A DNA stretch of 64,000 nt, taken from Trypanosoma brucei (Eukaryota). The first letter of the stretch is position 1; the number at the start of each line of letters is the position of its first letter. Positions 13,781 to 34,800 of this stretch are shown in pieces. A program made the position numbers and the translations under genes. The notes below the pieces were generated by a model. The model saw nothing but the letters and a program-made list of their open reading frames with translations, ran no database searches and was not told the DNA's origin. The stretch spans positions 832,001 through 896,000 of the forward strand of contig CP000069.1 of the NCBI GenBank assembly GCA_000002445.1, given 5' to 3'.

Positions 13781-13817
13781 TAAATAAATAAATAAATATA
13801 TATATATATATATATAT
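13781..13817. repeat. (TAAA)n followed by (TA)n compound microsatellite
   Basis: taaataaataaataaatatatatatatatatatatat in the spacer before the TBC gene. Confidence 0.85.
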
Positions 13818-14262: not shown

Positions 14263-14337
14263 TTACGTACTCATACGCCCACAAAAATTTTATTATTCAT
14301 TTTCCGCACTATCAAGTCGTGGAATCAGTTACTGTAG

Positions 14338-15684: not shown

Positions 15685-17223
15685 CAAATGAGTTGATTGT
15701 TTTAAAAATAAAAATAAAACAAAGCGAGGGATTTGAAAAGAGGAATGCTGAATTTACGGCTCATGATGAAATGAAATGAAACTGGGTGATTGAGTGTAAA
15801 ATGGCGAAAGTTAAGGGGGGACGAGGAGAATTTATATAGTGTTGTAACCTTTTCAATGCAATGCATTCAAGTAAGATGTTGGGTTTCCAACGACTACGAC
15901 GATGCGAAAGCCAGTAGATGGGGTGCATGAAATAGAAAAATTAATGAACCAACTTTTTGTTTCTATTTTCCTCTCCTCTCCTCTCTTGTTTCTTTTTTTT
16001 TTTGCTCTGCTGTTACCCTTATTTGAGGTATTTTCTTTTGATATCTTTTTGATTTTCCTTTCGTCCCTTTAATTTTATCCAGTTATTCCGAACTTGCGCA
16101 TCGTTTTGCTTCATTTCACTTAACCGTACTTTTTTCATCTACTTTTGTGGATGCATTTCTTTTTTTTGTTATTGTTGCAGTTCCACCACATCCCCGTCTC
16201 CCATTTCATCTATGTTTTTTTTCCATTTTTTTTTCTACCTTTTAACCCCGTCTGGTATTACACTCCAGATGCTACTATGCTCGATTGGTCATTATGATAT
16301 ATTGGCCCTTGTTGTTGCTACAGTTGCCGTTGTTTCTGTTTTTATTCATTGTGACCGGCAGCATCATCGAGTTTATGAAATGCAAATGTATCTTATGTGC
16401 TTTTACTCTTTGTTTGTTAGCGGTTCAGGTGCTTGTTCAAATACAAAAAAAATAAATAAGGAAAAATATATCTTTTATTCTATCAAGGGAAATTTGTCGT
16501 TCTCTTGAAGGTGTTTACGTCTGTTGCTCACATAAAAAGTTTTATGACTTGCTGTCGGATGGTGAAGGTCTTTGATTCAGTGGTCCTGTCGTGTGTTTTT
16601 TTTTTTTGCTTATCGTTGTTGCAACTGCTTATTCGTACTTTGTGGCGGTCAACGCGGTAAGGCGATCTGAAACCTCTTCAAAAGAAAAGGTAAAAGAAGG
16701 GGAAGATGTTAAGGGAAAGGGGGAAAGTTTTCCGCACGCACGTTTGTGATGTAATGTTTCATTTATTAATTTTTCTTTGTTATATATTTCCTCCTCTCTT
16801 TCTTTTTACTTCTTTGTGTTGGCACGACAGTGTGAGGATGATAATAACACCATTAGAGTTAACAATAATACGACTTTTGGGGTGCCTCTCCGATGTGTGT
16901 AATAATATTCATTCTTCATAATGTGCGTCAAATATGCTTTAGTGATATGTTGCTTTTCTATTTATACTTTTATTTCTCTTTACAATTGGACATAGACACA
17001 ATAATATTACCGAATTCCGTTACATTCCACAGTATAAGTGGTGACGGGGAGAGGTGGTGCAGTTGTGCTACACTTCGCTTGAGTGGATCTTTAAGAGTAA
17101 TATAGTAATAATAAGTAATAAAGTAATTTAATTTTTTTTTAAAATAAAAACAAAGGATAGGGAAAGAGTGACAGGAAATTTTTTGTGAAATTCACAGTTT
17201 AGGTACCGAAGGGGGAGGAAGGG

Positions 17224-18660
17224 ATGGTCAAACTTGACGTCTCACTCCTTCGCTTTCTTGAAAATGAGGATTTTCGAGTGCTTACGGCGCTTGAAATGAC
17301 TATGCGAAATCATGATGTGGCTCCTACTGCACTCATTGAGCGAATTGCGCAACTTCCACACGGCGGGTGCCGCAAACGACTACAGAACCTTCTTAAACAC
17401 AAAATGATTCACCACGAAAACACCATGTATGACGGGTTTGCCATGAAGTACACCGCATACGATTATTTGGCGCTTAGCACGTTGAGCAAACGTGGCACTG
17501 TTGCGGGTGTAGGCCACCGCATTGGTTGTGGGAAGGAATCTGATATTATCCTCGTTCAAGACGAAGCGGGTCGTGAGTGTGTGCTGAAGCTTCAACGCCT
17601 CGGCCGCTGTAGTTTTCGTACTGTCAGTCGTAACCGCGATTATAAAAATGGACGGCGTCGGCATGGTGAGAGTTGGTTTTATCTTTCACGTCTGGCGGCA
17701 GAGAAGGAGTATGCATTCATGCGAACTCTTTATGACGAAGGTTTCCCAGTGCCTAAACCAATTGATCAAAACAGACATGCTCTGCTAATGGAGTTAGTGG
17801 GCGGAACGACCCTTAACAACATTAACGTTTTGGGTGATGCCGAGTTGGTATATCGTCGTTGTCTTGATCTGATGGTAAAACTTGCTGAGCATGGCCTTAT
17901 CCATGGTGATTTTAACGAGTTTAACCTTATGGTAACCGAAGAATTACGAGTGATTGTTATAGACTTTCCGCAGATGGTGTCGACCAATCATCCCAACGCT
18001 AGTGATTTGTTTGATCGGGACGTTCATAATCTTGCCAATTTTTTTCATCGTCGTTTTAAAGTAAAAACGTTGTTTTACCCGACGCTTGAGAACGACGTTA
18101 TTCGTAAAGGAGATTTGGATCGTGTGGTGTTTGCAAGCGGATGCTTCAGCAGGAAACAGCAAAGTGAACTCGAACGACTACTGGAGGCCCAACAGGTAAT
18201 TGAAGCCGATGAAACCGAGAGTGAAAGCGGTGGCGAAGAGGACAATACAGAGGAGAAACGCGTAAAAGAACCGGTGGAAGTGGAAGGAAATGATTCTGCT
18301 GAAAGGGATGCAGGTGCAAAAATTTCTTATGCAGACCTCGAAGTTGTATGTGATGAGGCAAAAACAGGAGAGGATGATAGTGAAGTAGGGGATGAAGAAT
18401 CCGATAGCGATGCGCGCTCCATTGACAGTGCAATAAATGTGGCTGCTCAACAGCGTAGGCAGCAGCACTTGAATCCGAACTACCTCCCAGATGGTACTCT
18501 TAATGAATCGCACGTACGGTCGGAAGTTAGACGTCGCATTCGTCGAAAAGATAATCAACAGTTCGACAAGGGTCTCCACCGTAACGTGCAGAAAGGACGT
18601 CAAAAGCAGAAAATACGTAGGAAACTGAAGCATGCGGAAAATGAAGGACTCTTTGACTAA
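17224..18660 (+). CDS. RIO2: RIO2 atypical serine kinase (40S ribosomal subunit maturation)
   Basis: N-terminal winged-helix FRVLTALEMTMRNHDVAPTALIERIAQL. RIO-domain motifs GCGKESDIILV, LIHGDFNEFNLMV and VIDFPQMVSTNHPNA. Acidic, S-rich C-terminal tail. Confidence 0.85.
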   Translation: MVKLDVSLLRFLENEDFRVLTALEMTMRNHDVAPTALIERIAQLPHGGCRKRLQNLLKHKMIHHENTMYDGFAMKYTAYDYLALSTLSKRGTVAGVGHRIGCGKESDIILVQDEAGRECVLKLQRLGRCSFRTVSRNRDYKNGRRRHGESWFYLSRLAAEKEYAFMRTLYDEGFPVPKPIDQNRHALLMELVGGTTLNNINVLGDAELVYRRCLDLMVKLAEHGLIHGDFNEFNLMVTEELRVIVIDFPQMVSTNHPNASDLFDRDVHNLANFFHRRFKVKTLFYPTLENDVIRKGDLDRVVFASGCFSRKQQSELERLLEAQQVIEADETESESGGEEDNTEEKRVKEPVEVEGNDSAERDAGAKISYADLEVVCDEAKTGEDDSEVGDEESDSDARSIDSAINVAAQQRRQQHLNPNYLPDGTLNESHVRSEVRRRIRRKDNQQFDKGLHRNVQKGRQKQKIRRKLKHAENEGLFD

Positions 18661-19666: not shown

Positions 19667-21349
19667 ATGTCCCACTTTCAGCCTTCGCCGTGTTTCAATA
19701 CTTTTTCTTCGTTTCTGCAGGAAATCACAAACATCGGCAGCAGCGGCATAGACACGGAGAATAAGGAGAACATCCCACCGGGATCTTTTGGTCGGTTGAA
19801 TGACGGTAAGGGAGGTTGCCGACGTAATAGCAGTCATACCTGCTTTCGTAAGCAGCAACAACACCAGGAACAGCATCAGCAGCAACAGTTTCATAATATT
19901 CCCCGAGTGAATGATTGTTGCACGCCTATGAAAGAGGTTACATATCAGCAACAACAATGCCATACAGGACTAACACCAGGAAATAAATATATGATGAACT
20001 CGGCAAACAGAGATTACCCCGTAGGCATGAATGGAATTGATTTCCTGCTTTTAGATGAGAGTGACGTCTTTGACGGAAGGGATAACGGCTTCTTCACTCC
20101 AAATGTGAAGCGTCAAGGGGGAGTAACGGGCAACCACGGAAAGGTCTCGGAACTGTTTCACGAAAGCATGGAAGCACCTAGGCTAGCACGTAACCTAAAT
20201 GATAGCATAGAGGGGGTTCCGCTTGTTGGCAACGTGCTGCAAGAGAGTGATGACGAGGATTGCCTTGATAGCTACCGCCCGACCGAAATGTCCTCGACGC
20301 AAATATTTAATCCACGGTTGCAGGGTCAAGAATCTCGGCACTGCCCGCAAGATCACTGCTCATATCAGAAGCAGGTACATCAACAACCAAGTGATCGATC
20401 ACATTTACTCGGTTCTGCCTGGTGCGAAACCGCTCCGCGTCCGAAACCCCAACCTGAGCGCAATCACACCGCCACGCGCGTTACTCACGGTACCACACCA
20501 TTGGTTGCAGTTGCTGGTAGGCGGGTACCTGTTGACAAACTACACCTTCTGCTTGGGGCTACCGCGCAGGATGGAGTGGATGGGCAGTCTGGTGCGCGAG
20601 ATGCTGTGAATACTGTGCCCCTTGTTCCTTCTTCCCGTCCTACACCTTCTGCTGCTCAAACATTTAAAGTTATTCCACTTGCGCGTCCCTCGGAACCGTC
20701 AGTATCGCCCTCACCGCTTGCAACAACGCCCCAGAATACTGTTGCTGGACCCACAACACGTCGTCTTGCATCGTCGTTATTCCATAAGGAAATGGTTGTT
20801 ATTGATTTCGGTAAAGGAAACATCATGCGGTTCAAACCTAACCCCGCTTTTCCACCTCCAGTACCGGGAAAGCGATACCTTGTTGCGGTACGCGCTAGCC
20901 GTAGTCCATACGATAATGTCGCATATAAGGATGCCGGATTGTGCTCTTATGTGCTTCGTCACCCAGCAGATGGTAGTGGATCTAATGGAACAAGTGCAAC
21001 AGCAAACATAACCATTACCAAATCATCGGGCGATGTGGAGCGCGGTATTTTCGATGGCAGCATTATTCGTTGTATGGACACCCCGGGGGATGCGGTGCAG
21101 CTTCAACTTCTTGCCGTAGAGCGTGAGGCCGCTATTGTGGAATGCCGAAAACACTTCAAATTCCTCAACCTTCCGTTTGAGCTTGTGGACGTGCACTACA
21201 CGTTCGATAGGACGATTTGTGTTGTGTATTACAACATACATCGCCAGGAGGGGACAAGCGGTCACCCCAACGTGTCTCGTCTCGTGAGGACGCTTCAATT
21301 CAGACTCAAATGCAAAGTACATTTAAAGGCGGACTTTTGCAGCGACTAA
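19667..21349 (+). CDS. PSP1 C-terminal-domain protein with Q/H-rich N-terminal region
   Basis: C-terminal KRYLVAVRASRSPYDNVAY...ERGIFDGSIIR...AVEREAAIVECRKHFKFLNLPFELVDVHYTFDRTICVVYYN...VRTLQFRLKCKVHL follows the PSP1 C-terminal pattern (EF-KxGR..Y, DRG.D.G, E..A...C, LPM.L.D.EYQFD..KLTFYF). N-terminal QQQHQEQHQQQQFHN low complexity. Confidence 0.55.
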   Translation: MSHFQPSPCFNTFSSFLQEITNIGSSGIDTENKENIPPGSFGRLNDGKGGCRRNSSHTCFRKQQQHQEQHQQQQFHNIPRVNDCCTPMKEVTYQQQQCHTGLTPGNKYMMNSANRDYPVGMNGIDFLLLDESDVFDGRDNGFFTPNVKRQGGVTGNHGKVSELFHESMEAPRLARNLNDSIEGVPLVGNVLQESDDEDCLDSYRPTEMSSTQIFNPRLQGQESRHCPQDHCSYQKQVHQQPSDRSHLLGSAWCETAPRPKPQPERNHTATRVTHGTTPLVAVAGRRVPVDKLHLLLGATAQDGVDGQSGARDAVNTVPLVPSSRPTPSAAQTFKVIPLARPSEPSVSPSPLATTPQNTVAGPTTRRLASSLFHKEMVVIDFGKGNIMRFKPNPAFPPPVPGKRYLVAVRASRSPYDNVAYKDAGLCSYVLRHPADGSGSNGTSATANITITKSSGDVERGIFDGSIIRCMDTPGDAVQLQLLAVEREAAIVECRKHFKFLNLPFELVDVHYTFDRTICVVYYNIHRQEGTSGHPNVSRLVRTLQFRLKCKVHLKADFCSD

Positions 21350-21384
21350 TGTGCGGCGTCACTTCTTTTGCAGTTACGCATATT

Positions 21385-21419
21385 GGGAGGGAGAGGGAGA
21401 GGGAGAGGGAGAGAGAAGG
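21385..21419. repeat. (GGGAGA)n purine microsatellite
   Basis: gggagggagagggagagggagagggagagagaagg, about 35 nt after the PSP1 gene stop. Confidence 0.85.
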
Positions 21420-21800
21420 TTTCAATGACTGCAAAAGTCCGTTAGTTTATAATTATTGTTGGTGGTGGTGGCTTTTTTTTTTTTTTTTTGCTGTTGTTGG
21501 TATTGTTGATGTTGCTTTTATTTTGGTTTGATAAAAATTTTTTTTTCTTTGAACGTCATAAACAGTACCCAGGACGAAGGAAGTAAATGCTTAGAAGGGA
21601 AATGAAAATAGATAACAATGAAGTGGAAGAGGCAATCACGAAATGAAAAATTGACGTTGAAGAAGATTCTAAAAAAAAAAAAGAGAAAAGGGGAAATGAA
21701 GGAGGTAAAATGTGAAAGAAAGAAGGAAGGACATTAAAATAAAAAAATAGCAGCGGCTCTGAAACTCACGATTTTGAAGTCGTTTTACCCTTGTGGAATG

Positions 21801-21822
21801 CACACACACACACACACACACA
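21801..21822. repeat. (CA)11 microsatellite
   Basis: cacacacacacacacacacaca. A second (CA)9 lies at 25178-25195. Confidence 0.85.
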
Positions 21823-22069
21823 GAAAATATTCCAGCAGGAACTCTGAGAGTTGTGAGAGGAATATGTTTATATTTGTTTATTTGTTTTTTTTTTGGAGGG
21901 GGGTTGGAGGCAGAAGAAAGGATGGAAGTTCTTAAATTGTTCTTCTCTTCTCTCTTGTACTTCCTCAATATATACATATGACTATCAGATTCTCACATGC
22001 ATATTAATGGAAGTCGTGAACACATTAGAAATTTAGCTTCATACTTCTTTATGCGCATTTTTTTTTTTT

Positions 22070-22087
22070 GGGGGGGGAGGGGAGGGG
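22070..22087 (+). repeat. G-run cluster (G8-A-G4-A-G4), potential G-quadruplex motif
   Basis: ggggggggaggggagggg, preceded by a T12 tract. Confidence 0.6.
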
Positions 22088-25000
22088 CGTTGTTGTTTTA
22101 TTGGCGTGCACTGTAATAATTTAAATATAATCCAGTTACCGAAATGACAACCACTTTTTCTCCTTCTTTTCTGCTATTAGTTTGGTTCATCTTGGGTACA
22201 TTTTTTTTTTGTCCTGTTTTACTTATTTACTTTTTACTATTTCCGCTCTTCTTCTTTTTTTTTCTAAATCATTTCTCCTTGCTGCCATTTTCTTTGGACT
22301 TACCCGTCTGTCCATATTTATATTATTTATATATTTGTTTGTATTTGCACTTTAAAAAAATTTTAAATGTTTTTTCTCCCTGTGCAGCAGCACCTTTTCC
22401 TTTTATGATTTTTTTTCTTCCTTCTTTTTTTTTTTTAAAAATTTTTACCTGTTTGTGGTTGTCATAATTAACCATTAACGCCATAGAGCCGTCGCGGCGC
22501 TCATGAGATCTTTCGTTTTTCTCCCTTTTTTTTGTTTAAATGAAGTTTGTGGAGAGCTTTAAAAAAAAATTGTAGGGGATTTGAGCACCGCGGCAGGCCA
22601 AATTAAAAGGAGGGACAAGACAAAAAAGAAAAAAGAAAAAAACATAGAATTGTAATATTAAAAGAGTGACGGCGAGCCATGAATAAATAATAATAACTAA
22701 AAAGAAGGAGATGATTTTTTTTTTATTTAGAAAAAAAATGAAAACAAAAAAGATAAAACAAAACTTCTTTTTTACGACCAGCGGATACGAGGATTAATAC
22801 AAGTGAAGAAGGAAAGAGAAAGAAAACTGGGGAAAGAAGGTAAAATTACAAAGAAAGGGAAAAGGAAAGGGAAGACAGAAGAAGAAAAGAGAAGAAATGT
22901 GCTACAGCAAACATAAACAACCCTCCAGGTAATTCGAAATTTATATGCATATTTGTCTTTTCTTTAAGTTTTTCTTCATAAATTATTATTATTATTATTA
23001 TTTTTTTCATACACGAAGAGGAATTGTAATTGTTCTTATAGAGGGAAAACAACGCCACCACTTCCATGAAACTTAAGAAAAGATAAAAACAAGTAGCAAT
23101 TTTTTTTCTTTTTTTAAATTCTTCTTCCCACATTTTTTCTCCCTATATTCTTATTTTCTTTACACTGTTTTTATGAGGGAACTCGTAACTTGTCGCTGTG
23201 TTTAGTTGTTTTCATTTGTTTCGTTCTGTATTAAAAGTTGTTGATTTTTTTTTGTTTACTCTTCTCCTCTTGCAATTAGTGATGTTGTTATTTTTGATAG
23301 CCCCGTCTTTGTTTTGTTTTGTGTTTCTTTTTTTTTTTCCTCCTCTTTCGTGTTTCATTTTTGTATGACAACTCGCTCACATTCGCCGCGCCGCTCTTCA
23401 GAGAAACCTCTAGTGGTGGCATGTGCAATGTTAATGCCGAAGAAAATAATATATAAATATTATATATATTATTTATATATTTGTATATGTAAAAGGAAAA
23501 TTAAATATGTGAGATAAAATCAAAGATGAAAGACGAGGTGAAATTAAATAGGACAGAAGAAAAAAGGAAAAAAAAAGTGTCATCGTCGTGATCACAAGAA
23601 TCATCTTTGATTAATGAGTAAGTAAGCAAGTGCGTGTTAATTAAATTAAATTTTGTAACTAATATATAACAAGAAAATGAAAAGAGAATACTTGAGAGAT
23701 GCCAGTTCATTAGATTTCACACCATTTTTTTATTTTTATTTTTATTTTTTCATTAGATTTTTTTTTCATTTTAGATGCAAATGTGGAGAAAAGCGGAAGG
23801 AGTCGTACTGCCGAGTTGAAGGTTTTTTGTAGTACCTTTTTTCTTGTTTCGTTTTTATTTGAAAGTAAATTTGTGGTTCTTTCCTCTTATGCTCTTGTGC
23901 TCATTTACAAATCCTGTTACGGTATAAATTTTTTTTTTTAAAAAAAGAAAGTGAAAAAAGCAAACGGAGCAAATCAAATTGACGAATGAAAGAACGAATA
24001 AATGACAACGAAGAGAAGAAAAAATAAAAAGGAAATTCGTGAACATATGATAAAAAAAACTAAAAACAGGGGGACGAAAAGCAAAAAGAAAAAAACACGT
24101 CAACATAGACAAAAAATACATAGGCAAACATACACGTCGATATTATATAAATATAAATATATTTATTTATTTATTTATATTTATATTTATAGTATTGATG
24201 GTTGTATGTTTGTGTGCGTTGAAAGGGAGTGAGCGCCGATAAACTCCCTTTTGTGCGCCTTTTTGTTGTTGTTTTTTTTTTCCACATGTTTGTGTTTTCG
24301 TTCTCTCACAGTTCTGTTTTACCTATTACTCGTTATCAGTTCACTCCGTTAGATGTTATACCGCTTATTTATTAATATAAATTTATTTCCCTTGCATTTC
24401 CCTCATACCTCATTTCTTTTTTTCTTTTGAGCTCGGTCGCATGTGTGAGTTTATTTTTTTTTTGTCGGAGCTCAATGAATGAAAAGTGAGGAGGAAAAGG
24501 CAAAAAAAAACATATATATATATACTTATTTAATTTATATATGTTTTTTTCCCCTCTTCTGCTTGGGGGTATGTGAGGGAATTTCACCTTCCTGTTTCTG
24601 CAGGAAGTAAACCGCATTTAGATAAATTAAAAAGAAGGAAGAATAAATGTTTGAATCGGTGAATGAACGAAAGAGTGAAGAAATGGAGAAGTTATGGATA
24701 CGGAACAACACTGCGCATAGAAATTTTTTCAATAAAGAAAAACTTTTCCACCTCCCCACCCCTTTCCATCATTTATTTCCTCTTTACTTTTTCTTCTTCA
24801 ACGAAATTTGTTAAATGTGTTATTGTTGATATTATTACTATTACTATTACTATTATTGTCATTATTGCTATTATTATTGTTGTTGTTATTACTGTTAATG
24901 CTGTTACCACTTATGTTGTCGTTATTATTATGTTTTTTTTTTTTCGTTTGACCGCTCATTTATTACTGTTGAGGTATTTCCACCTTATGTGAGCGAACGG

Positions 25001-27091
25001 CTTTGATAAAGTGGTGAAAGTGCCAAGAACTGTAATATAAGTTTTATTATGACAGTATTGACAATAATGATGACAACAACAACAACAATAATAATAATAA
25101 TTCATATGATAGTTGTAACAGCAATAATTTGTAACAACAGTTACAATATTGACAAATAAGTTGATTTCTTCCATGGGACACACACACACACACACCTCTG
25201 TTTTTTTTTCATTTATTTAGGCAATGAAGAGACTGGTGGTATGAAAAAAAACAAAGCTGGAAGGAATGAAGAAGGAGATAAAAGAAAAAGAAGAAATTAA
25301 ACTGGAAAAAAGGGGTTTAGATAATAAACAGTGAAAGTTCCACCTCCATAAACGCACCCACTTCCTTTTCGTATTTGTACGTTTCCTCCTCCCTCTCATT
25401 TTTTTGTTTTAAATGTTGTCGTCGGTTCTTTTCTTCTTCTTTTTTTTTCTCCCCCTTTTTTTTCCCCACTCCTATTCTCTTTCTTGTTTTTTTTTGTATA
25501 CTTCAACTTAAGCAAAGTAAACGAAAAGAAACATTTCTCCATTTTTACTTCCTCGTGAGTCGTCTTTTTTTTTTCTTTTGTGTTGTTTTATTCGAAACCT
25601 TTCTTCCTTCAATTCCAATGATTTCCTCACTTTAAAAGTGAAAGAACAAAAAAAAAAAGAGGAAAACGTTACCAAATTAAGCATGATCAAAACAAAAAAA
25701 GAAAAGATACCAAATATATAAACATATACGTATACGTTGAAATCATGCCTGCGTAAAGAAGAAAAGGAGGAGGAAGAAAGGGGAGAATAATTAAAGGGGG
25801 AAAAAAATAAGAAAAGAAAATAATAAATGGGGTGGAAAAAAAAATTAAAAAGAGACACATGCAGTTGAAGGAAACACAGAAATGTGAGCTGGAAAAAAGG
25901 AAAAAAAAAAGGAATCAAAAGAGAAAGAAAGAGAAAAAAAAAAGAATATGTAACGACCGTATAGAAGCACCGTGACGATGAAGATGATGACAATAATAAT
26001 ACACATCTTTGTCCCCCTACCACCCATACAAAACACTTTAAAACTTTTGCCAGAATTTTTTTACTTTTGTTTTTTTTTCTTACATTCATTTATCTATTCT
26101 GCAGAGAAGAATCTAACTATTTATTGAGTAGATGAATAAATTATAAGAAAAATGACAGAAATGATGGGAAGAAATTCGTTTAAAAAAAATTGGCGATTGT
26201 TTTTGTGTTTGTCTATTTACTTCTTTTTTCGTTATGTTGGTGGCGTTTTTGGTGCAATTTTTTTGTTTCATATAAATATGTTTTTTTTTGGTTACTGTCG
26301 TTGTTATTGTTGCAAAGGGTGTCGCGTGAGTCAGTATATATATATATATATATTTTCTTAGGGGTTCTCACTGTGCGCGCCTCGTATAAAATATAACGTA
26401 AAGTTAAAAAAAAAAAACTTAAACGTAACCAATAAATGTTGACATATATGCATATATATATATATATTAGCTTTACGCTAACGTGCTTCGCTTCTTGTTC
26501 CCTTGTCCATAAAGAAATGTCTATATATTTATCGTTTTGTTTATTCTGTTTCCCCAACACTTCCTCTTAGTGTTTTTACAAATGTGTGATACGCGATGCT
26601 TGCTTCTCTTCTTTTTTCTTTCTTTTTTTTTTTGCTGTCACACTCTTTTTTTTCTTTGAACAATAAATTAAAAATATATAAAATGAGGTAAATAGTGTAA
26701 CTCGACGTTGTTTACTTCAAAGCGCTGCAGTTATTTGTCTCAATAGTTTTTTTTCTTTGATTTCATTATAACATATATATATTCGGCTTATTGCGTCCGT
26801 GCTAAATCTGCATTTGGCTCAAGTGACGAAAATTATTGTTGCATAAATTTGCGAGTACTACAATTACCGCGAAATAAATAGAAGATATTTTAACCTATAG
26901 GTTATAAGGAGGAGTAGTGTTTGAAGAGGAAATTACGCAAAGAGGTAACATATAAAAAAAAGAAGAGAGGGAAGAAAAGAAAGTAGAAAGCAGCCTGCTA
27001 TCAGCAGTGAATACGTAAGTAACAAACTGAAAAACAAAAAAAAACACAAAAGGAAAGAGTCGGAATTGAAGTTAATATTTCATTTGTTCAA

Positions 27092-28459
27092 ATGCAACAG
27101 CGTTCCATCAGTCCTGGTCGTGGTCGCGTGGTACCGAGAGGACAATTAACGCGGTCAGCGAGGGGCAGTACAATTTCATGCAGCAGCCCTCAGAGACCGC
27201 AAGCAGTTGTGAATGAATTACACCGCCGTGATGGAACAAATCCCACTACTGACCGGGGCCGCCAAATTGCTGAAGAGGTGGATGAACTAATGAATGAAGT
27301 GTATGGAGGAACGGCCCATCAACCACCTCCCGAATCTCTGCAGCGGCATGCGGAGGGCGGCAACCTCTTGGCTCGCTATAAGACATCCATCCTTGCTTCT
27401 GCTTTACCAACTTCATGGCAGCGAGGACCTTCAGACCCCGCAGGTTTGTGCTTTGATGCCAGTGACCGTAACTTGTTGTGTATGGATGTTTATGAAAAGA
27501 GGGGTCTTTGTGTCGTGGGTTCCGCGGATCATGGACTCAAGGTATTTGACCTCGCCACTGGAGCAGAAAAGCGAAATCTGTACACAAAAAAGTACGGTCA
27601 CACCGAGTGGGTAACGTGTTGCAAATTTCTACCAGACAGCGGCAAGATTCTTTCGGGTGGGATGGATAGTAAACTCTGTTTATGGGAGGCTTCCGGTCCC
27701 GCTCGTTGTACTGATTTAACTGGTCATACTGGAAGCATCAGCCAGGTGGAAGTGTGTGGCAATAACGGATTTGCTCTGAGCAGTAGCTATGATCGGACGC
27801 TGCGACTGTGGGATTGTGGAGCTGGTGGGCGGTGTATTGCAACGTTTGCCGGTCACAAAGCCCCTGTGATGATGTTTTCGTGGTGCGGGACGCAATTACT
27901 TTCAGGTGATCGCCAAGGGACTGCTAAAATGTGGGATGTGGAGAGCGGCGAGTGCCTTGCGACAATGGCCACGAAGCGTGGGCAAATAGGTTCGCTATGG
28001 CATACACTTCACACGAGTGTGGGATTACTTTCTGCTATTGGGGATCAGGGTGGGGTTTTAACCGTCATGGATTTCCCCCGTACCGGCAGTCGGCCCATAT
28101 TCCAAGGTGAGCTTCACCCGGGTGGTGTAATAAGCAGCATTCGCTCGGTAGATGAAACTCCATATTTGATTACTGCCGGAGCGGATAAGGTCATCCTCAC
28201 GCTCGATCCGCGTGCTGGTTTTGCAGTGGTTCATAACTTCACTGATCACCGTGATTTCATTTACTCGATGGAGACATTTGGTCCGTTGGTATTATCTGGT
28301 GGTGGAAATGGTTGGTTGCTGGTACATAATGTGTTGGATGGTAAATGTTGCTATGGGCTGGGCGCTAATGGGGCAGCTGTGCGTGAAATACGTACAACAT
28401 CGGAGTATCTGGTGGCGGCAGGGGATGATGGCAAAGCTATGGTTTATAGGTTTAACTGA
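27092..28459 (+). CDS. WD40-repeat protein
   Basis: Repeated WD signatures: LSGGMDSKLCLWE, LRLWDCGAGGRCIATFAGHKAPV, GDRQGTAKMWDVESGEC, GDDGKAMVYRF. 455 aa; ATG start. Confidence 0.75.
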   Translation: MQQRSISPGRGRVVPRGQLTRSARGSTISCSSPQRPQAVVNELHRRDGTNPTTDRGRQIAEEVDELMNEVYGGTAHQPPPESLQRHAEGGNLLARYKTSILASALPTSWQRGPSDPAGLCFDASDRNLLCMDVYEKRGLCVVGSADHGLKVFDLATGAEKRNLYTKKYGHTEWVTCCKFLPDSGKILSGGMDSKLCLWEASGPARCTDLTGHTGSISQVEVCGNNGFALSSSYDRTLRLWDCGAGGRCIATFAGHKAPVMMFSWCGTQLLSGDRQGTAKMWDVESGECLATMATKRGQIGSLWHTLHTSVGLLSAIGDQGGVLTVMDFPRTGSRPIFQGELHPGGVISSIRSVDETPYLITAGADKVILTLDPRAGFAVVHNFTDHRDFIYSMETFGPLVLSGGGNGWLLVHNVLDGKCCYGLGANGAAVREIRTTSEYLVAAGDDGKAMVYRFN

Positions 28460-28561: not shown

Positions 28562-29304
28562 AAGGCCAATAAATGTTTTTTGTTCGTTTTTTTTAATGTT
28601 GGGTTCGTTCATTATTATATCGTGTTTTCTTTTTTTTTTAAAGGTTCATGCTTTTCATTGTTACCATACCAACTTCGTGCGTTTTATTCACCTCCGTTTC
28701 CGTCATTGCACTGGCCCATAAAAGAGTAGAAAGGTATGTTGTATTTTTGTGTCAATGTAATTGAAACCGTGCAAATGACTGTTTCTCCCTTTTGTTTACG
28801 TCGTCTTGCCGCAGTTTCTCTTCCTATTTCTCCGTGCCACACTTGTTTGCCCGTTAATAATTATGATCATTTTATATGGGTGACATGTATATTTTTTTTA
28901 AAAATCCTTCTGATATCACAACAAGAGGTGAGGAAAGTGAACGAAGTAATGGTGAGAAAATCAATAAGTTGACGGCCGTTCTTTTTTTTTTTGTTGTTGT
29001 TCCCCTGTTTTGCCACTTGGGTGCTTTGCCCGTGAAAACTTATAATTACTCTGCTCGTTGTGAGATGTTACAATCAAAATTGCTAAAAATATTCCACATT
29101 CTTACATCATCCTTATTCTTCATTTTTTTTCCTGTGATGACAATTTACCATCTGCTGTCGGCAACAAACAATACAACTGCAACACGAAGGAATAAGAGAT
29201 AAGAATCGGTATATTTAAAACAGCCACACATATATATATTGTTAAAACTTGTGGTAGAAATAAAACGAAAAAGAAAAGAAAAAAATAAATTTTCTTTGCG
29301 AGTT

Positions 29305-30702
29305 ATGTATCGTTTTTCAATCAGTGGTAGTGCTCTACCTTCTTCTGTTGATTGGGCACTTCTCCGGCATTTGCCCACTTGGAGACTTAATAAATATACA
29401 ATGGATCCAGTAAAAGGAGTAGGGAAAGATATAGAGTGTACAGATGATGAACCATCACCATTTTGGGTATCAGGAAGAGAAATTCGGCTTCTCCGTATGA
29501 CAATGAGTCGCTCTTCAGCGTCGCCAGCGTGTGGTTCTTTTTCTTATGGCGAAAGGAAAAGTCGTATTGCTGACAAATCCAAACAATGCGGATGGGCGAA
29601 CCATTTTGTTAGGTGGAATAGAGCCATCAGCGTATTTGGTGTTCCATATCTCAACGCCGCGGACACGTCTTTTTGTTCTGTATTTGATTCTGTCACATGC
29701 ATAAACTTCGAAATTCCCTTGACAGAAGGTGGGGGAGTTGCATGGTTGCCAAATGGAGCTCCGTTATCAAGTCCATTGAGGTGTTTTGTTGAAGAAAATG
29801 TAACAAAGCGGGGAATTACATCCGCCTTCTCTTTTCACTCACCGTATTGGTTGGAAGTTGAGGGGTTTCAAAGCCGCTGGCCTGGCGTTGATATCGCTCC
29901 TGCTGCTTCTCCACTTTATGTCAAGGATATGCCGAAAGGGTTTATAAATGCGGAGCAGACAACAGACGCTTCACGCTTCGATTCCGTGTCGTGTGGTCCA
30001 CAAAGGCAACACGAATGCTTACTCATAAGTGGCGTGTATCATGTTTCGCTTAACTCGTCTCTAAAACTCGCAGATGCTCTTGCGAAAATGACAAAAGCTG
30101 AAGAAGGACAATTACTGCTTCCCCCTTCACTTCATGAAACATCTTTTTCAAGGAGCATGCCATTACAGGGGTCTCCGCAGTGCAATGAGATGGAAAAAAA
30201 TAATCCTTGTAATTTGTGGGTTGATGTGGAATTTATTGAAGCAGTTGGTTGGTCTGTGCACAGTGCGGCTGTGGGTGTGGAACTTCACAAAACACAGCTT
30301 CTTTTGAATCACCGACCATTTCCACTCCAACAAAGTGGGTCAGATAATTCGGTAACATTAATAAATGCTGTGTTTATTGTGGAGCGGGATGACTTACTGA
30401 ATTTCATAACGTATAAGCCTGACCTCATTGGCTTCACACAAAAAATTTTCATATACTCTTTCACAGTTATCAGATTGGCTTTTCAAGCGTACAAAATGAA
30501 ATATACTTCAACTACGTGGGTTGTTGCTTCTGCTCTGGAGGGGTTCAACATCCGTGTCCGTAAAACAGATGGGCTCGTGGGTGTTGAAGTTAAACTTTTC
30601 ATTCGTCAAGAGAACAAACATTTCACAACTGTTGTCGTCAATAGAGACGAGTTGAACATATCCGATGAAACCTTTATGGAGTTACAACAGCGCTGTGTAT
30701 AA
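29305..30702 (+). CDS. hypothetical protein
   Basis: Long coding-strand ORF. The track start at 29239 is a TTG inside an A-rich stretch. First ATG is at 29305 (MYRFS) and the next at 29401 (MDPVKG); either could be the real start. No recognised domain. Confidence 0.45.
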   Translation: MYRFSISGSALPSSVDWALLRHLPTWRLNKYTMDPVKGVGKDIECTDDEPSPFWVSGREIRLLRMTMSRSSASPACGSFSYGERKSRIADKSKQCGWANHFVRWNRAISVFGVPYLNAADTSFCSVFDSVTCINFEIPLTEGGGVAWLPNGAPLSSPLRCFVEENVTKRGITSAFSFHSPYWLEVEGFQSRWPGVDIAPAASPLYVKDMPKGFINAEQTTDASRFDSVSCGPQRQHECLLISGVYHVSLNSSLKLADALAKMTKAEEGQLLLPPSLHETSFSRSMPLQGSPQCNEMEKNNPCNLWVDVEFIEAVGWSVHSAAVGVELHKTQLLLNHRPFPLQQSGSDNSVTLINAVFIVERDDLLNFITYKPDLIGFTQKIFIYSFTVIRLAFQAYKMKYTSTTWVVASALEGFNIRVRKTDGLVGVEVKLFIRQENKHFTTVVVNRDELNISDETFMELQQRCV

Positions 30703-31802
30703 ATAACAGATAATATTTGCCGTGCGAGAATCATCACAATACCTCAAAGTTTTTATGAAGTTTTTTTTGTCTCCGTCAAGAGTCGTTTATATTTATTCGT
30801 GATTATACTGTTCCATTTTATTTTTTTTTTTAAAGGCCTCTACTGCTATTATTATTTTTTTTTTACAAGTTTCTGTGCATCTTTTTCTATTTCTTTTGTT
30901 GCTGCATGGTTACTTGCTAAATTTGTTGCATCGTCGTTGACCACGTCTCCTTTTTTTTCCCCTTTTGCTTGAACAAACTGTCTTTATGTGTATTTTATTT
31001 TTGATACAAAGTACTTATGTCTCTTTTGTTTTATTTTTGTTTTCTCACTGATGCGTTCTTTTCATTTATTTTCCCCTGCTTTCATTTCGTCATGTACTTC
31101 CAATATTTTCTTATTTTCCCCCTCTTGCCACACATAAATTCATATTTCCCTTGCATTGCGAATTGGTCTGCTAATATCTTTCACTACTGCAAGTTGTTAA
31201 CATATTCCACAAAAACATCTTTTTTTTCCCCTCCTTTTCTTTCATTTTCACTTTGTTGTTTTTTTTTTTACTTTTCATGCTTTAAAGCATTCAAGTAGGT
31301 GCAAACCAAAAAGGATTTAGAAAGAAAACCCTCAAAAGGCTTGTTTTTTTTTCTTTTTTCCTCTTTATAATATTTTTCATATTTTTCACCCACTACTCAC
31401 ACGAGTCTGTGGGTTCTTGAGTAACTCTGCTTGATCACGCGACCTGTTGTGGTTTCAACTTGTACGCGTGCGTTGTGAAGTTCCTATTTTGCTCTCTTTC
31501 GCCTTCTAATTTTTTAAACTTCACTTCCTTTGTTTTCTTTTTTGTTTGGTTTCTTCTACTCACTTTTTTGTCGTTTTTGGTAGTTTTTTATTTTGTTTTC
31601 CTTTTGCGACCAGTTGTTGTGTATTGTCTCTACCACTTTATAAATACATACACAGGCACAAACGCATATCAAAACTACCAACAAATACCGAAGCGGAGGA
31701 AGAGAAACGAAATACGCACCGACAGTGTCGTTTTAATTCTTTTCATTTTTTTAAATTTTGTTTTGTCCTTTCTCACATTTGTGTACCAAAAACTGTGGTT
31801 TC

Positions 31803-34800
31803 ATGAACGTGCGTGTTGCTACAGCAGTTCGTATCCTACCAGGAACTGCAATAGCAGACAAGCAATTCATTCTTTCTTCGGTCCACAAAGCCGTTGATGG
31901 GCAAACTGTTGTAGTGGACAGTTGTGGCGATGGGTCGCGGCCGATGATTGTACGGGTTGATGAGGTTTATGATGAAGAGGATAATCAAAGCTACTTTTAT
32001 GAGCAAGCCGTTAGGGATTTGGTGTGTTGTGCATTTGATGGGAGTTATTGCACGGTATTGGCGTATGGCGCTGCGGGGAGTGGTAAGACGTATAGTGTGC
32101 TTGGACCCAAAGCACAGGAAAATATAATGGAAGAGGCAGGGATTTTCCTACGTGTATTTGAGGATTTATTTAGGTATCAGGAGAAAATGTCCAAGCGAAG
32201 GCACATCATGTTTTTCGTAGCAGCACTTGAGCTGGTTGGCGAGCAGGTGTTGGACTTGCTAAAGAGGCGAAGTAAGATTCCTGTGAGTGATGTGTCAAGT
32301 GATTATCTTTTGCACAACCTCCGCCACGCTGAAGTCACCTCGATGACCGAGGCCACGAATGTCTTCAATTTGATAAACGATATGCGCCAAGATTTGCCTA
32401 CCGATGGAATTACACGTGGATCACGCTCTAGCGCTCTTATATTTATTGATATTGTTCAAGTTGCTCACAAACACTTCCCCGACCGTCCTACGCGGGAGAA
32501 ATTAGTGGAAGTGGGCGGATTCTCTGTTGAACCTAGTGTGCGAGGCATCCTGCATTCGCGTGTGTTATTGGTAGATTTAGTGGGTAGCAACATCGGAAGA
32601 ACCTCAGGTATTGGAGGAGAGGAAGTAATAGAGAATCTGGGAATGGCTAAATCTTTGCAAACATTGGGTATGTGTGTGCGCTCCTTGTATGTTGGGGACT
32701 CGCATATTCCCTTTTGTGATGCCAAACTAACTGAGTTGCTGAAACCCTCGCTTGCTGAAAGTACGTCGCGCGTACTTGTGGTGGCCCATGTTTCTCCGCT
32801 TGCTAAGGATGGTGACGAAACGAGAGAAACATTGTGCTTTTGTGATCGGATAAAGGAGTTCAAAGCTGATAAATCCTACAATGTTCCGTCCGCAGGGTTT
32901 GGGGAATATGAAACTCAGCCGGTTACTCAGCACAGGGAACTTCTTGCTGATGTGAGAATTGCGGCTGCTGTTGCCTACTATACACCTCAACGCCCTTATT
33001 TTACGTCGATGCTAAAAGGTGTGAGCGTGAAAGAGGCACGCGATGCCGCAATTGTTTCTTTGAAAAACGAATTGGATGGCCTGGAAATGAGAAAGGAAAC
33101 GGAGTACATCAGTAAAGCAAAGGAAAAAATAATGAAGGACCGAGATAAAAGGGTACGTGGTTTCGCATCCAGGATGAATCAAATGATAGAGGAATACGAG
33201 GTAATTTCCCAGAAGGTCAAAGAAGAGAAGAAAGTTAGCAAGCACCTTACAAGGGAGTATGAAGCTAAGAGTGAGGAAGCCATAACGGAGGCCAAGAAGG
33301 CAAAAAAAAGTCGTTTGAAAGCCCAGGAGAAGGTGGAGAACCTTCGGGAGCAGCTTGGTTTGCCGAAGGTTGATTCGAGTTTGCCTAATCAGGAGAGTTC
33401 CCAATCACATAAGTACGATGATGACAAAATGTTTTGTGGTGGGTCGACGGAAGAACTTTCAAATGAGGAAAGGGAAAGGGAAACACTACTTGACAATCTT
33501 GTGAATGACTTTCAAACGGCAGCCAAGGACCTCAACGATGTCCACGCGACGTACGCGAAGCGCCTCACCGCCACTCAAAGGCAGAGAGCGCAAGTGCGAC
33601 GTATAAAAATGCTTTGCTCAGGAATTATATTGGATAGCACCCTAGTGGAGGATATTATTGATTTCATTATCGATCGAGCTGTTGATATCTCCCACAAGGT
33701 AATTAAACCATCGCAGCCGTATTCTTGGAAAAATATTGAAGGCCTTAGCACTGTTTTGAGAGGTGGTAACAGACTTTATCCACCGTTGTTCAATTCTATT
33801 CCAGATGCTACAAAAGTGGATAGTACAGGAGTATTTCATAGATGTACTTTTCTCAGCTCTGACGAAAGCGATGAGGAGAACTCTCACTATCCAGATGAAA
33901 CGCGGCGGCCAGTTGAGATGGACAATGATTTGTACGAACATTATTTGGCGATGGGTAATACGCAAAAGAAGGTGAAGGAGGACGGTAGTGCGGGTTCAGA
34001 AAAGAAGTCAGCAGCAAAATGGGGAGGGGAGATTTCAGAGACTGCACGAGACGAAGCGAGAAAGCCCGCGAAGGAGAATGCTGAAGATGGGGGTGTTGAG
34101 GGAAGTCCGATAGGGTTAAATGCATCAGCAACGGAATCGCTACATCTCGATGGCGACAACGATGGGGAATTTAATCAATCTGATAACAATGTCGAAGAGA
34201 GTGAGGAGCCTTTGACGGAATCGGAGAAACAGCGAATGCGGACACGTAGGGACCAGCAATACCTTATGCGTGTGTATGACTCACCTACCTTGGTCGACGA
34301 TCTCATAAAATTCTTGCGCGGTGGAACGGTAATGCTGAAGCACGGACGCATAGGAAAACCTCATCGTCGCCTGTTCTGGGTATCTATAGATAGGGAGAAG
34401 CGAAAGCTTCTATGGGCAGATCCCGATGCAACCGCAAGTCGCTCTAGCTCGTATGTTGACCTTGACAACGTGAGTTACATTCAAATAGGCTGTTTCAGTA
34501 AAGTTTTCAAACGGTACTGCTCGACATCGACGGATCCAAGTTTTTACCGTAGTTTTACGGTTGGTTTGAAAGATGGTAGTCGTACGGTTGATATTGTTGC
34601 CGACACATTAGCGGATTTTGAGGCTTGGGTGCTTGGTCTGTCTAACTTGGTGAGGGTAGATCCATCGTGGGGCGGGAAGTTGGATGTCTCAGTGGAGGTA
34701 AACTACGACCGTCTTAACTGCTTTGAGGTGAGTCTTTGCGAAACAAATTACATATTTCCTACGCAATACCTCATGTTAAAACGACGTGTGACGCAGATTG

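What the first reader, a model, noticed from the sequence alone, without database searches (positions are those of the whole stretch)
21350..27091. 5.7 kb gene-free, strand-asymmetric low-complexity tract inside a tightly packed directional gene array
Every other spacer in this 64 kb array is 0.15-2.2 kb. This tract is 5.7 kb with no credible ORF on either strand; the ORF-track hits inside it, such as 25508-26089 (-) and 22144-22467 (+), are homopolymer/low-complexity translations. It alternates T-rich and A/G-rich blocks and carries (GGGAGA)n, (CA)n x2, (TTA)n/(AAT)n, G8-A-G4-A-G4 and many A/T homopolymers. In a trypanosomatid polycistron I can think of three explanations. The first is an unusually long, probably regulatory, 3'UTR of the upstream PSP1-domain gene. 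The second is one or more unannotated non-coding transcripts such as a snoRNA cluster or lncRNA. The third is a decayed repeat or retroelement remnant. I cannot distinguish these by eye.
Basis: seen in the sequence. Interest (0 to 1): 0.6.

Follow-up and report, generated by a model that had tools for sequence, protein, structure and literature searches.

The report
Long 3'UTR of trypanosome PIE8 gene
The 5.7 kb "empty" tract is almost entirely the already-annotated, unusually long regulatory 3' untranslated region of the Trypanosoma brucei PIE8 (Tb927.6.2850) mRNA, a known kind of feature in this parasite, so it is real but ordinary.

Summary
Window 21350-27091 is a 5,742-nt low-GC tract with no ORF and alternating purine-rich and pyrimidine-rich blocks. 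It is three times longer than any other spacer in the window.

The window is T. brucei chromosome 6, 832,001-896,000. The upstream gene is PIE8 / "ESAG8-associated protein", Tb927.6.2850. A published 3'-UTR annotation (Trenaman et al. 2024) gives its 3'UTR as chr6 853,350-858,513, which is window 21350-26513 (5,164 nt). That end lies 84 nt upstream of a 61-nt polypyrimidine tract followed by an AG, the canonical coupled polyadenylation and trans-splicing signal for the next gene (WD40, Tb927.6.2860).

Two fragments overlapping the UTR scored as positive regulators in that paper's reporter screen. The PIE8-to-WD40 spacer is the longest local spacer in six of seven other Trypanosoma species and second-longest in T. 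vivax (1.9-4.0 kb), with no alignable sequence. The cycling-sequence core CAUAGA is enriched, on the sense strand only, in all eight, which fits PIE8's cell-cycle-regulated mRNA.

I found no snoRNA, tRNA, conserved ORF, Pfam domain or dispersed repeat. Multi-kb 3'UTRs rich in both tract types are a described class for trypanosome RNA-binding-protein and kinase genes.

Verdict: already known, low interest. Internal cryptic processing into lncRNA-like fragments is not excluded.

The parts
19667..21349 (+). CDS of PIE8 / ESAG8-associated protein, Tb927.6.2850 (PSP1 C-terminal domain protein, 560 aa)
   Evidence: Pfam PF04468 E=1.4e-10. 99% identical to T. b. brucei Q9XML1 'ESAG8 associated protein'. 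Named PIE8, Tb927.6.2850 in PMC6907760.
21350..26513 (+). Annotated 3'UTR of Tb927.6.2850 (5,164 nt)
   Evidence: Trenaman et al. 2024 Supplementary Data 1 gives UTR_Start 853350 and UTR_End 858513 on Tb927_06_v5.1 (+). Offset: window = chr6 - 832,000. The listed UTR starts of Tb927.6.2780.2790.2820.2850.2870 and .2880 each equal a window ORF end + 1.
21385..21419 (+). (GGGAGA)n polypurine run with five G3 tracts, 36 nt after the stop codon. Candidate RNA G-quadruplex.
   Evidence: Sequence, TRF, 35-nt polypurine run. G4 formation is inferred from the G3N3 pattern and was not tested.
22070..22087 (+). G8AG4AG4 run, second G-quadruplex candidate
   Evidence: Inference only.
22482..22487 (+). 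Cycling-sequence core CAUAGA, copy 1
22643..22649 (+). Cycling-sequence CAUAGAA, copy 2
24104..24109 (+). Cycling-sequence core CAUAGA, copy 3
24716..24722 (+). Cycling-sequence CAUAGAA, copy 4
22511..23607 (+). UTR-internal fragment scored as a positive regulator in the published reporter screen (chr6 854511-855607)
   Evidence: peak_1174.2, fully contained in the UTR, log2FC 2.39, FDR 0.052, no native downstream splice site.
24798..25160 (+). Long imperfect hairpin: a (UAU/UUG)n arm pairs with a (CAA/UAA)n arm
   Evidence: Inverted repeat I1, 52 nt, 75% complementary. MFE -97.9 kcal/mol against -68 +/- 4.6 in shuffles, z = -6.46. Helices listed.
25419..25499 (+). Longest internal polypyrimidine tract (81 nt), first AG at 25511. 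Candidate cryptic trans-splice/polyadenylation signal.
   Evidence: Use in vivo was not tested.
25682..27561 (+). Fragment covering the last 831 nt of the UTR plus the native downstream splice site, strongly positive in the published reporter screen (chr6 857682-859561)
   Evidence: peak_1176, log2FC 4.77, FDR 0.052, has_DS_splice_site yes.
26597..26657 (+). 61-nt polypyrimidine tract that specifies both the upstream poly(A) site (84 nt upstream, at 26513) and trans-splicing of the WD40 mRNA
   Evidence: The rule of about 100 nt between poly(A) site and polypyrimidine tract is in PMC6597758.
26686..26687 (+). First AG after the polypyrimidine tract: predicted spliced-leader acceptor of Tb927.6.2860
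   Evidence: [quoted passage not shown] Predicted, not mapped.
26688..27091 (+). Predicted 5'UTR of the WD40 gene (about 404 nt)
   Evidence: Inference.
27092..28459 (+). CDS of the WD40-repeat protein (Tb927.6.2860 by position)
   Evidence: Pfam WD40 families. Lies between Tb927.6.2850 and Tb927.6.2870.

Best explanation
Window 21350-26513 is the 5.16 kb 3' untranslated region of the PIE8 (Tb927.6.2850) mRNA of Trypanosoma brucei. Window 26514-27091 is the short intergenic processing signal plus the 5'UTR of the next gene (WD40, Tb927.6.2860).

How it works:
- Shown from annotation and sequence: the polycistronic precursor is cut and polyadenylated about 84 nt upstream of the 61-nt polypyrimidine tract at 26597-26657.
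- Inferred: the spliced leader is added at the first AG after that tract (26686).
- Inferred from published work on DRBD18 and DRBD3: the roughly two dozen polypyrimidine tracts inside the UTR are normally skipped, probably because RNA-binding proteins mask them.
- Partly shown by the published reporter screen, otherwise inferred: the retained UTR is a platform for post-transcriptional control. Its A-rich polypurine tracts promote translation. U-rich polypyrimidine tracts counteract or mask them, in part by local purine-pyrimidine duplexes.
- Inferred: four sense-strand CAUAGA cycling-sequence cores, conserved as a feature across Trypanosoma, mediate the late-G1/S peak of PIE8 mRNA.
For: Identity and coordinates:
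- The PSP1 gene is 99% identical to T. b. brucei 'ESAG8 associated protein', which is PIE8, Tb927.6.2850.
- Trenaman et al. 2024 list the Tb927.6.2850 3'UTR as chr6 853350-858513.
- Six gene ends in the same table fix the offset window = chr6 - 832,000.
- That annotation set was built in part from nanopore direct-RNA reads carrying a spliced leader or poly(A).

Processing anatomy:
- The annotated end at 26513 lies 84 nt before the 61-nt polypyrimidine tract, and the first AG is at 26686. This matches the roughly 100-nt rule.

Regulatory activity and composition:
- Two fragments overlapping the UTR were positive regulators at FDR 0.052. The paper's cut-off is FDR < 0.1.
- Polypurine tracts run at 9.4/kb and polypyrimidine tracts at 8.9/kb, the highest polypurine density of the sizeable spacers in the window. 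This matches the described class of >2 kb 3'UTRs rich in both tract types, which is over-represented among mRNA-binding-protein and kinase genes.
- RNA-binding-protein and kinase mRNAs often have 3'UTRs several kb long, against a median of about 400 nt.

Conservation:
- The PIE8-to-WD40 spacer is 1.86-3.98 kb in seven other Trypanosoma species. It is the longest local spacer in six. In T. vivax it is formally second to a 5.1 kb gap between called genes that held no separate call for the RabGAP orthologue.

CAUAGA cycling-sequence core:
- T. brucei has 4 copies against 0.8 expected.
- Five other species have 9 copies against 2.3 expected, P = 7e-4. The antisense hexamer occurs 3 times against 3.2 expected.
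- Density is 0.56/kb against 0.10/kb in neighbouring spacers, P = 4.5e-5.
- Two further species have two copies each, at matching positions.

Expression:
- PIE8 mRNA is cell-cycle regulated. Its profile in Archer et al. Table S4 is -0.39, 0.37, 0.55, -0.52.
Against: - I could not look at RNA-seq, spliced-leader or poly(A) read data myself. The UTR boundary is taken from a published table, and I cannot tell whether this particular UTR was one of the 4,703 manually revised ones.
- The UTR contains 24 internal polypyrimidine tracts of at least 16 nt, including an 81-nt one longer than the tract actually used. Shorter isoforms and UTR-internal lncRNA-like transcripts may therefore coexist with the full-length mRNA. 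Many annotated T. brucei lncRNAs are embedded in UTRs.
- There is no primary-sequence conservation with the five other species compared by blastn, so most of the 5 kb may be under weak or only compositional constraint.
- The CAUAGA enrichment in T. brucei alone is modest, and it was one of 11 motifs tried.
- Two of the four reporter-screen fragments from this UTR were not significant.
Confidence: 0.88

Rival explanations
1. The tract is processed into one or more independent long non-coding RNAs. Internal polypyrimidine tracts would serve as trans-splice and polyadenylation signals. PIE8 mRNA would then carry only a short proximal UTR, and the distal part would be a separate lncRNA with its own function.
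For: - There are 24 internal polypyrimidine tracts of at least 16 nt with a downstream AG, including an 81-nt tract at 25419-25499.
- An internal fragment with no native downstream splice site (22511-23607) still supported reporter expression in a construct that has no processing signal of its own. It therefore may contain usable signals (inference).
- Published work shows lncRNAs embedded in long T. brucei 3'UTRs that are processed either independently or as part of the UTR.
- Tb927.6.2830, two genes upstream of PIE8, is cited as producing a novel ncRNA from within its 3'UTR after DRBD18 depletion.
Against: - The published annotation treats the whole 5.16 kb as one UTR.
- The three UTR fragments that end inside the UTR are flagged as having no downstream splice site.
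- The nanopore study's list of novel lncRNAs has no chr6 entry between 853 and 859 kb. I could not consult the larger KS17gene lncRNA set.
- There is no conserved sequence block or Rfam family in the tract.
Confidence: 0.2
2. The tract hosts a snoRNA cluster or other small structured RNA genes.
For: Trypanosome snoRNAs lie within polycistronic units in ORF-free stretches (background knowledge). Several 300-nt windows fold much better than shuffles, with z down to -7.
Against: - Rfam 15 gave no match at gathering score in the whole 64 kb. At E<=1 there were only two miRNA-family hits on a (TA)n palindrome and a 14.8-bit CrcZ hit.
- No tRNAs were found.
- There are no tandem gene-sized repeats.
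- The low-energy windows are explained by adjacent purine and pyrimidine blocks and AT palindromes pairing with each other.
- Nothing is conserved in the five other species compared by blastn.
Confidence: 0.03
3. The tract is a decayed retroelement or other repeat insertion that inflated an originally short spacer.
For: The T. brucei spacer is 1.4 to 3 times longer than its orthologues, so about 2-3 kb was gained in the T. brucei lineage. It is very AT-rich and full of microsatellites.
Against: - The ten longest stop-to-stop segments have no Pfam hit at E<=0.01. The only hit is a 0.061 MutH match.
- None of the 86 stop-to-stop segments of at least 40 aa is conserved.
- All repeat families found are low-complexity purine or pyrimidine runs, not dispersed element copies.
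- The spacer is already long in all seven other species, and the longest locally in six. Growth by microsatellite and low-complexity expansion fits better.
- I had no T. brucei repeat library (ingi, RIME, SIRE) to search directly.
Confidence: 0.04

Closest known systems
Long (>2 kb) T. brucei 3'UTRs rich in both A-rich polypurine and U-rich polypyrimidine tracts, e.g. RBP10 (>7 kb), RDK2, CFB2, ZC3H20-22 and DRBD12 (Trenaman et al. 2024 PMC11405848; Clayton 2019 PMC6597758; Bishola Tshitenge & Clayton 2022 PMC9380746)
   Same: - Multi-kb length.
- Sits downstream of a gene whose PSP1-domain family has been linked to mRNA binding and cell-cycle control.
- Alternating polypurine and polypyrimidine blocks at about 9 tracts/kb each.
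- Many unused internal polypyrimidine tracts.
- Fragments active in the same reporter screen.
- Ends about 100 nt upstream of the next gene's splicing signal.
   Different: - PIE8 is not among the exemplars dissected in those papers.
- I could not check whether it is in the 44-gene 'bloodstream up-translated' cohort.
- Its mRNA is known for cell-cycle regulation rather than stage regulation.
- My tract density uses simple runs of at least 9 nt, not the papers' FIMO motif counts, so the '>20 per kb' criterion was not tested.
Cycling-sequence (CAUAGAAG) regulon of kinetoplastids, recognised by CSBPII, whose subunits are themselves PSP1-domain proteins (Archer et al. 2011 PMC3069104; Benz & Urbaniak 2019 PMC6907760)
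   Same: - Sense-strand CAUAGA cores in the UTR are enriched and conserved as a feature in eight Trypanosoma species.
- The mRNA rises in late G1 and S phase.
   Different: - The classical targets encode DNA-metabolism proteins, usually with short UTRs.
- Here the target is itself a PSP1-domain paralogue.
- Binding and function of these particular copies are untested.
UTR-embedded lncRNAs of T. brucei (grumpy, KS17gene_1750a in the RBP10 UTR, KS17gene_6446a; Guegan et al. 2022 PMC9200285; PMC12592628)
   Same: A long ORF-free stretch between two genes of one polycistron, with internal polypyrimidine/AG sites that DRBD3 or DRBD18 could mask.
   Different: I found no evidence for an independently processed RNA here. 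grumpy hosts a snoRNA, and this tract has no Rfam snoRNA match.

Membership tests
Trypanosomatid mRNA 3'UTR (long regulatory class) | Lies on the coding strand directly after the stop codon of a gene in a polycistronic unit | tested here: met
   All large ORFs in the window are on the + strand. The tract starts at the PIE8 stop codon.
Trypanosomatid mRNA 3'UTR (long regulatory class) | The poly(A) site lies about 100 nt upstream of the polypyrimidine tract and AG used for trans-splicing of the next gene | tested here: met
   The annotated end is 26513. The 61-nt polypyrimidine tract is at 26597-26657 and the first AG at 26686. The rule is in PMC6597758.
Trypanosomatid mRNA 3'UTR (long regulatory class) | Continuous poly(A)+ transcript from the CDS to the distal poly(A) site | not testable with these tools
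   Known only indirectly, from the published UTR coordinates in an annotation set informed by nanopore direct RNA-seq.
Trypanosomatid mRNA 3'UTR (long regulatory class) | [quoted passage not shown] | tested here: met
   The UTR is 5,164 nt. Polypurine runs of at least 9 nt occur at 9.4/kb and polypyrimidine runs at 8.9/kb, the highest polypurine density of the sizeable spacers in the window. The paper's FIMO-based threshold of >20 motifs/kb was not reproduced.
Trypanosomatid mRNA 3'UTR (long regulatory class) | Confers regulation on a reporter | not testable with these tools
   From the literature: two of four fragments were positive at FDR 0.052 in the bloodstream-form reporter screen.
snoRNA cluster (C/D or H/ACA-like) | Match to snoRNA covariance models, and tandemly reiterated small-RNA gene units | tested here: not met
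   Rfam gave 0 hits at gathering score and only chance-level hits at E<=1. No gene-sized tandem repeats were found.
Retroelement remnant (ingi/RIME/SIRE/VIPER) | Residual RT, endonuclease or gag coding similarity, or similarity to the element consensus | tested here: inconclusive
   The ten longest stop-to-stop segments gave no Pfam hit, and only low-complexity repeat families were found. No trypanosome repeat library was available for a direct nucleotide comparison.
Independent lncRNA gene | Own spliced-leader addition site and own poly(A) site inside the tract | not testable with these tools
   Candidate signals exist. The three reporter-screen fragments that end inside the UTR are flagged as having no downstream splice site.
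Cycling-sequence (CSBPII) regulon | One or more CAUAGA(AG) elements in the UTR, in sense orientation | tested here: met
   T. brucei has 4 copies against 0.8 expected. Seven other species have 1-2 copies each, and six of them have two copies at about +30-230 and +700-980 nt. The antisense hexamer is at the chance level.
Cycling-sequence (CSBPII) regulon | mRNA abundance peaks in late G1/S, and the peak depends on the element | not testable with these tools
   From the literature: PIE8 mRNA is cell-cycle regulated, with the profile. Dependence on the element has not been tested.

The most novel reading that the evidence does not exclude
The conserved CAUAGA cycling-sequence elements would make PIE8 mRNA a target of the CSBPII complex. 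The CSBPII subunits are PSP1-domain proteins, and PIE8 is a PSP1-domain paralogue. This would be a cross-regulatory or autoregulatory loop within the PSP1-domain family that helps time the cell cycle.

The T. brucei-specific doubling of the UTR would add cryptic processing sites, and their regulated use (by DRBD18 or DRBD3) would release a distal lncRNA-like fragment. The roughly 360-nt hairpin at 24798-25160 could additionally be a substrate for the RNAi machinery.
Probability: 0.15. Interest if true: 0.4.

Novelty: already known. Interest (0 to 1): 0.12.

Why it matters
It mostly does not matter as a discovery. The tract is an annotated 3'UTR of a class that the trypanosome field has described and screened genome-wide.

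Its value here is as a clean worked example. In a trypanosomatid polycistron, a multi-kb ORF-free stretch with alternating purine and pyrimidine blocks downstream of a regulatory-protein gene should be read first as a long 3'UTR.

The one small addition is that CAUAGA cycling-sequence cores are enriched on the sense strand of the PIE8 downstream region in eight Trypanosoma species. In six of them there are two copies at similar distances from the stop codon. This gives a directly testable cis-element for the reported cell-cycle regulation of PIE8 mRNA, and hints at cross-regulation among PSP1-domain proteins.

Tried and rejected
- **Rfam.** Gathering mode on the whole window and E-value mode on 21000-27400 found no snoRNA or other family. 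ARAGORN found no tRNA.
- **Other T. brucei-group strains.** An exact-protein look-up of the window's PIE8 and WD40 proteins and of P0001 found nothing on record. The same was true for T. congolense. The closest relatives could therefore not be aligned.
- **Sequence conservation.** Sensitive blastn of the tract against five orthologous spacers gave only short, non-collinear, low-complexity matches.
- **Hidden coding sequence.** tblastn of all 86 stop-to-stop segments of at least 40 aa against those spacers found nothing. Pfam on the ten longest segments found nothing.
- **Other motifs.** PUF9 UUGUACC, the flagellar AUGUAU motif, RBP10 UAUUUUUU, AUUUA, UAGAU and AAUAAA were all at or below expectation in the UTR. 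The apparent excess of UAUUUAU and (UAU)3 is simply the microsatellites.
- **lncRNA catalogues.**
  - The Guegan et al. 2022 and both DRBD18 papers have no supplements held as text.
  - The nanopore paper's list of novel lncRNAs has no entry in chr6 853-859 kb.
  - The DRBD3 paper lists only Tb927.6.2850 itself, as differentially expressed in a DRBD3 differential-expression table with logFC 1.17.
- **Structure scan.** Several windows have z below -7, but they are explained by neighbouring low-complexity blocks pairing with each other. I do not take them as evidence of an evolved RNA structure.

Full report
**1. The observation**

The large ORFs of the window all lie on the + strand. They leave a 5,742-nt gap between 21349 and 27092. 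The other 22 gaps between them are 68-1,824 nt.

Inside the gap the only ORF of at least 150 aa is 25508-26089 (-). Its translation, like that of every shorter ORF, is F/L/S/K-rich low-complexity sequence. GC falls to 0.26-0.35, against 0.45-0.55 in the flanking genes.

Purine-rich and pyrimidine-rich blocks of 100-350 nt alternate. The variance of purine fraction in 100-nt windows is 0.0317, against 0.0025 +/- 0.0004 after shuffling. The three longer neighbouring spacers tested score 0.018-0.024 on the same measure. The blockiness is therefore a general property of this genome's inter-CDS sequence. What is exceptional is the length and the high polypurine content (9.4 tracts/kb, 13.6% of bases).

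**2. Where the window comes from**

The upstream gene (19667-21349) has a PSP1 C-terminal domain. It is 99% identical to T. brucei brucei "ESAG8 associated protein" Q9XML1. The literature calls this gene PIE8, Tb927.6.2850 (PMC6907760).

The flanking genes are:
- RabGAP-TBC (14338-15684)
- RIO2 kinase (17224-18660)
- a WD40 protein (27092-28459)
- a Tc-38-like protein (29239-30702)
- a kinesin (31758-35060)

Supplementary Data 1 of Trenaman et al. 2024 (PMC11405848) lists 3'UTR coordinates for chromosome 6. The UTR starts of Tb927.6.2780.2790.2820.2850.2870 and .2880 each equal a window ORF end plus one, after subtracting 832,000. The window is therefore Tb927_06_v5.1:832,001-896,000.

**3. 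What the tract is**

The same table gives the Tb927.6.2850 3'UTR as 853,350-858,513 (+). That is window 21350-26513, or 5,164 nt. The authors state that their UTR set was refined using nanopore direct-RNA reads that carry the spliced leader or a poly(A) tail. I cannot tell whether this particular UTR was one of those revised.

The annotated end fits the sequence. [quoted passage not shown] In T. brucei the poly(A) site is set about 100 nt upstream of the polypyrimidine tract used for trans-splicing of the next gene, and the first AG is the preferred acceptor (PMC6597758).

- the PIE8 3'UTR (90% of it)
- 578 nt of processing signal plus the predicted 5'UTR (about 404 nt) of Tb927.6.2860

**4. 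Evidence that it is functional and not junk**

(a) Reporter data. In the published massively parallel reporter assay, four fragments overlap this UTR. Two are significant positive regulators at the paper's threshold (FDR 0.052, cut-off < 0.1):
- window 22511-23607, fully internal, log2FC 2.39
- window 25682-27561, covering the distal 831 nt plus the native splice site, log2FC 4.77

(b) Synteny. The gene order RIO2 - PIE8 - WD40 is conserved in seven other species. The PIE8-to-WD40 spacer lengths are:

| Species | Spacer (kb) |
|---|---|
| T. vivax | 3.98 |
| T. cruzi | 2.74 |
| T. rangeli | 2.69 |
| T. conorhini | 2.37 |
| T. theileri | 2.25 |
| T. melophagium | 2.19 |
| T. grayi | 1.86 |

The T. 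grayi value comes from tblastn, because the WD40 gene was not called there. The spacer is the longest local one in six of the seven species. In T. vivax it is formally second to a 5.1 kb gap between called genes that held no separate call for the RabGAP orthologue. Primary sequence is not alignable, and only non-collinear low-complexity matches appear. Length is kept and sequence is not. T. brucei has roughly doubled the spacer.

(c) Cycling-sequence motif. PIE8 mRNA is reported to be cell-cycle regulated. Its values in Archer et al. 2011 Table S4 are -0.39, 0.37, 0.55, -0.52. I therefore tested known kinetoplastid UTR motifs.
- Only the cycling-sequence core CAUAGA stood out: 4 copies against 0.8 expected.
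- As an independent replication, the five orthologous spacers then in hand carry 9 sense copies against 2.3 expected (P = 7e-4). The reverse complement is at chance, 3 against 3.2.
- Density is 0.56/kb, against 0.10/kb in the neighbouring spacers of the same loci (P = 4.5e-5). In T. brucei it is 0.77/kb against 0.12/kb.
- Two species fetched afterwards each have exactly two copies.
- In T. cruzi, T. rangeli, T. conorhini, T. theileri, T. melophagium and T. grayi, the two copies sit at about +30 to +230 and +700 to +980 nt from the stop codon.
- CAUAGAAG is the element recognised by CSBPII, whose subunits are themselves PSP1-domain proteins.

**5. How it most likely works**

Shown:
- the position, strand, boundaries and composition of the UTR
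- its processing-signal anatomy
- the conservation of spacer length and of CAUAGA

From the literature:
- Long UTRs rich in A-rich polypurine tracts raise translation efficiency.
- Co-occurring U-rich polypyrimidine tracts counteract this. The authors propose stage-dependent "unmasking".
- mRNAs for RNA-binding proteins and kinases typically carry such multi-kb UTRs.
- DRBD18 and DRBD3 stop the splicing machinery from using polypyrimidine tracts inside long UTRs.

Inferred for this locus:
- The 24 internal polypyrimidine tracts, including an 81-nt one at 25419-25499, are normally masked.
- The purine and pyrimidine blocks partly pair with one another. Examples are 22882-22898 with 23099-23115, 24086-24097 with 24270-24281, and 24632-24642 with 24788-24798. 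The corresponding windows have z of -7.
- The CAUAGA elements confer the late-G1/S peak.

**6. Rivals**

*snoRNA or other small RNA genes.* No Rfam family reaches its gathering score anywhere in the window. At E<=1 only two miRNA models hit a (TA)n palindrome, plus a 14.8-bit CrcZ hit. There are no tRNAs and no gene-sized tandem repeats.

*Retroelement remnant.* No Pfam domain at E<=0.01, no conserved ORF, and only low-complexity repeat families. The spacer is also long in the other species. I lacked an ingi/RIME/SIRE library, so this rival is not formally closed.

*Independent lncRNA(s).* This is the only rival with real residual probability. Candidate internal signals abound. An internal fragment without the native splice site still supported reporter expression. 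UTR-embedded lncRNAs are common in T. brucei. Tb927.6.2830, two genes upstream of PIE8, is cited as yielding an ncRNA from within its UTR after DRBD18 loss. Against it, the annotation treats the UTR as one unit, and the nanopore list of novel lncRNAs has nothing at chr6 853-859 kb. I could not consult the KS17gene catalogue.

**7. Comparison with what is known, and verdict**

The tract works like, and is a member of, the described class of long T. brucei regulatory 3'UTRs such as RBP10, RDK2, ZC3H20-22 and DRBD12. Other UTRs of at least 5.5 kb appear in the same table on chromosome 6 alone: Tb927.6.2030.3480 and .3490.

The tract is already annotated, so its novelty is "already known". The conserved CAUAGA pattern in the PIE8 UTR is a modest, testable addition. 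The long hairpin at 24798-25160 (z = -6.5) and the two G-quadruplex-like runs are curiosities that I did not follow up.

Interest is low (0.12).

Noticed in passing
window 24798-25160: A hairpin of about 360 nt inside the UTR. A (UAU/UUG/UUA)n arm pairs with a (CAA/UAA)n arm. MFE is -97.9 kcal/mol against -68 +/- 4.6 for shuffles (z = -6.46). It could be a Dicer substrate in an RNAi-competent trypanosome. Neither conservation nor small-RNA evidence was checked.
   Followed up: partly
window 22850-23149, 24050-24349, 24350-24649: These 300-nt windows fold with z of about -7, because neighbouring polypurine and polypyrimidine blocks and AT palindromes pair locally (for example 22882-22898 with 23099-23115). 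This matches the published idea that polypyrimidine tracts mask polypurine tracts. It may also be just a by-product of low complexity.
   Followed up: partly
window 21385-21419 and 22070-22087: Two G-quadruplex-type runs: (GGGAGA)n with five G3 tracts starting 36 nt after the PIE8 stop codon, and G8AG4AG4. No folding or conservation test was done.
   Followed up: no
window 15685-17223 (3'UTR region of Tb927.6.2830, the RabGAP-TBC gene): The DRBD18 paper (PMC9380746) cites Tb927.6.2830 as an example where a novel non-coding RNA arises from within the 3'UTR after DRBD18 depletion. So cryptic processing is documented two genes upstream of PIE8.
   Followed up: no
L001 (T. vivax) 17045-17619: In T. 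vivax the WD40 gene is followed directly by the kinesin gene, with a 575-nt spacer. No Tc-38-like gene (the Tb927.6.2870 orthologue) is called between them, unlike in the other species examined apart from T. rangeli, where only a 156-aa gene is called there. L001 also showed no separate gene call for the RabGAP orthologue upstream of RIO2; the call at 3859-7750 was not checked for identity.
   Followed up: no
L003 (T. grayi) 13488-14834: The WD40 orthologue is intact by tblastn (69.6% identity over 454 aa) but is not among the called genes of that assembly. This looks like an annotation gap rather than a gene loss.
   Followed up: partly
Tb927.6.2850, literature (PMC12592628 supplement; PMC4696300): PIE8 mRNA is listed with logFC 1.17 in a DRBD3 differential-expression table. 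[quoted passage not shown] This is consistent with UTR-mediated control beyond the cell cycle.
   Followed up: no
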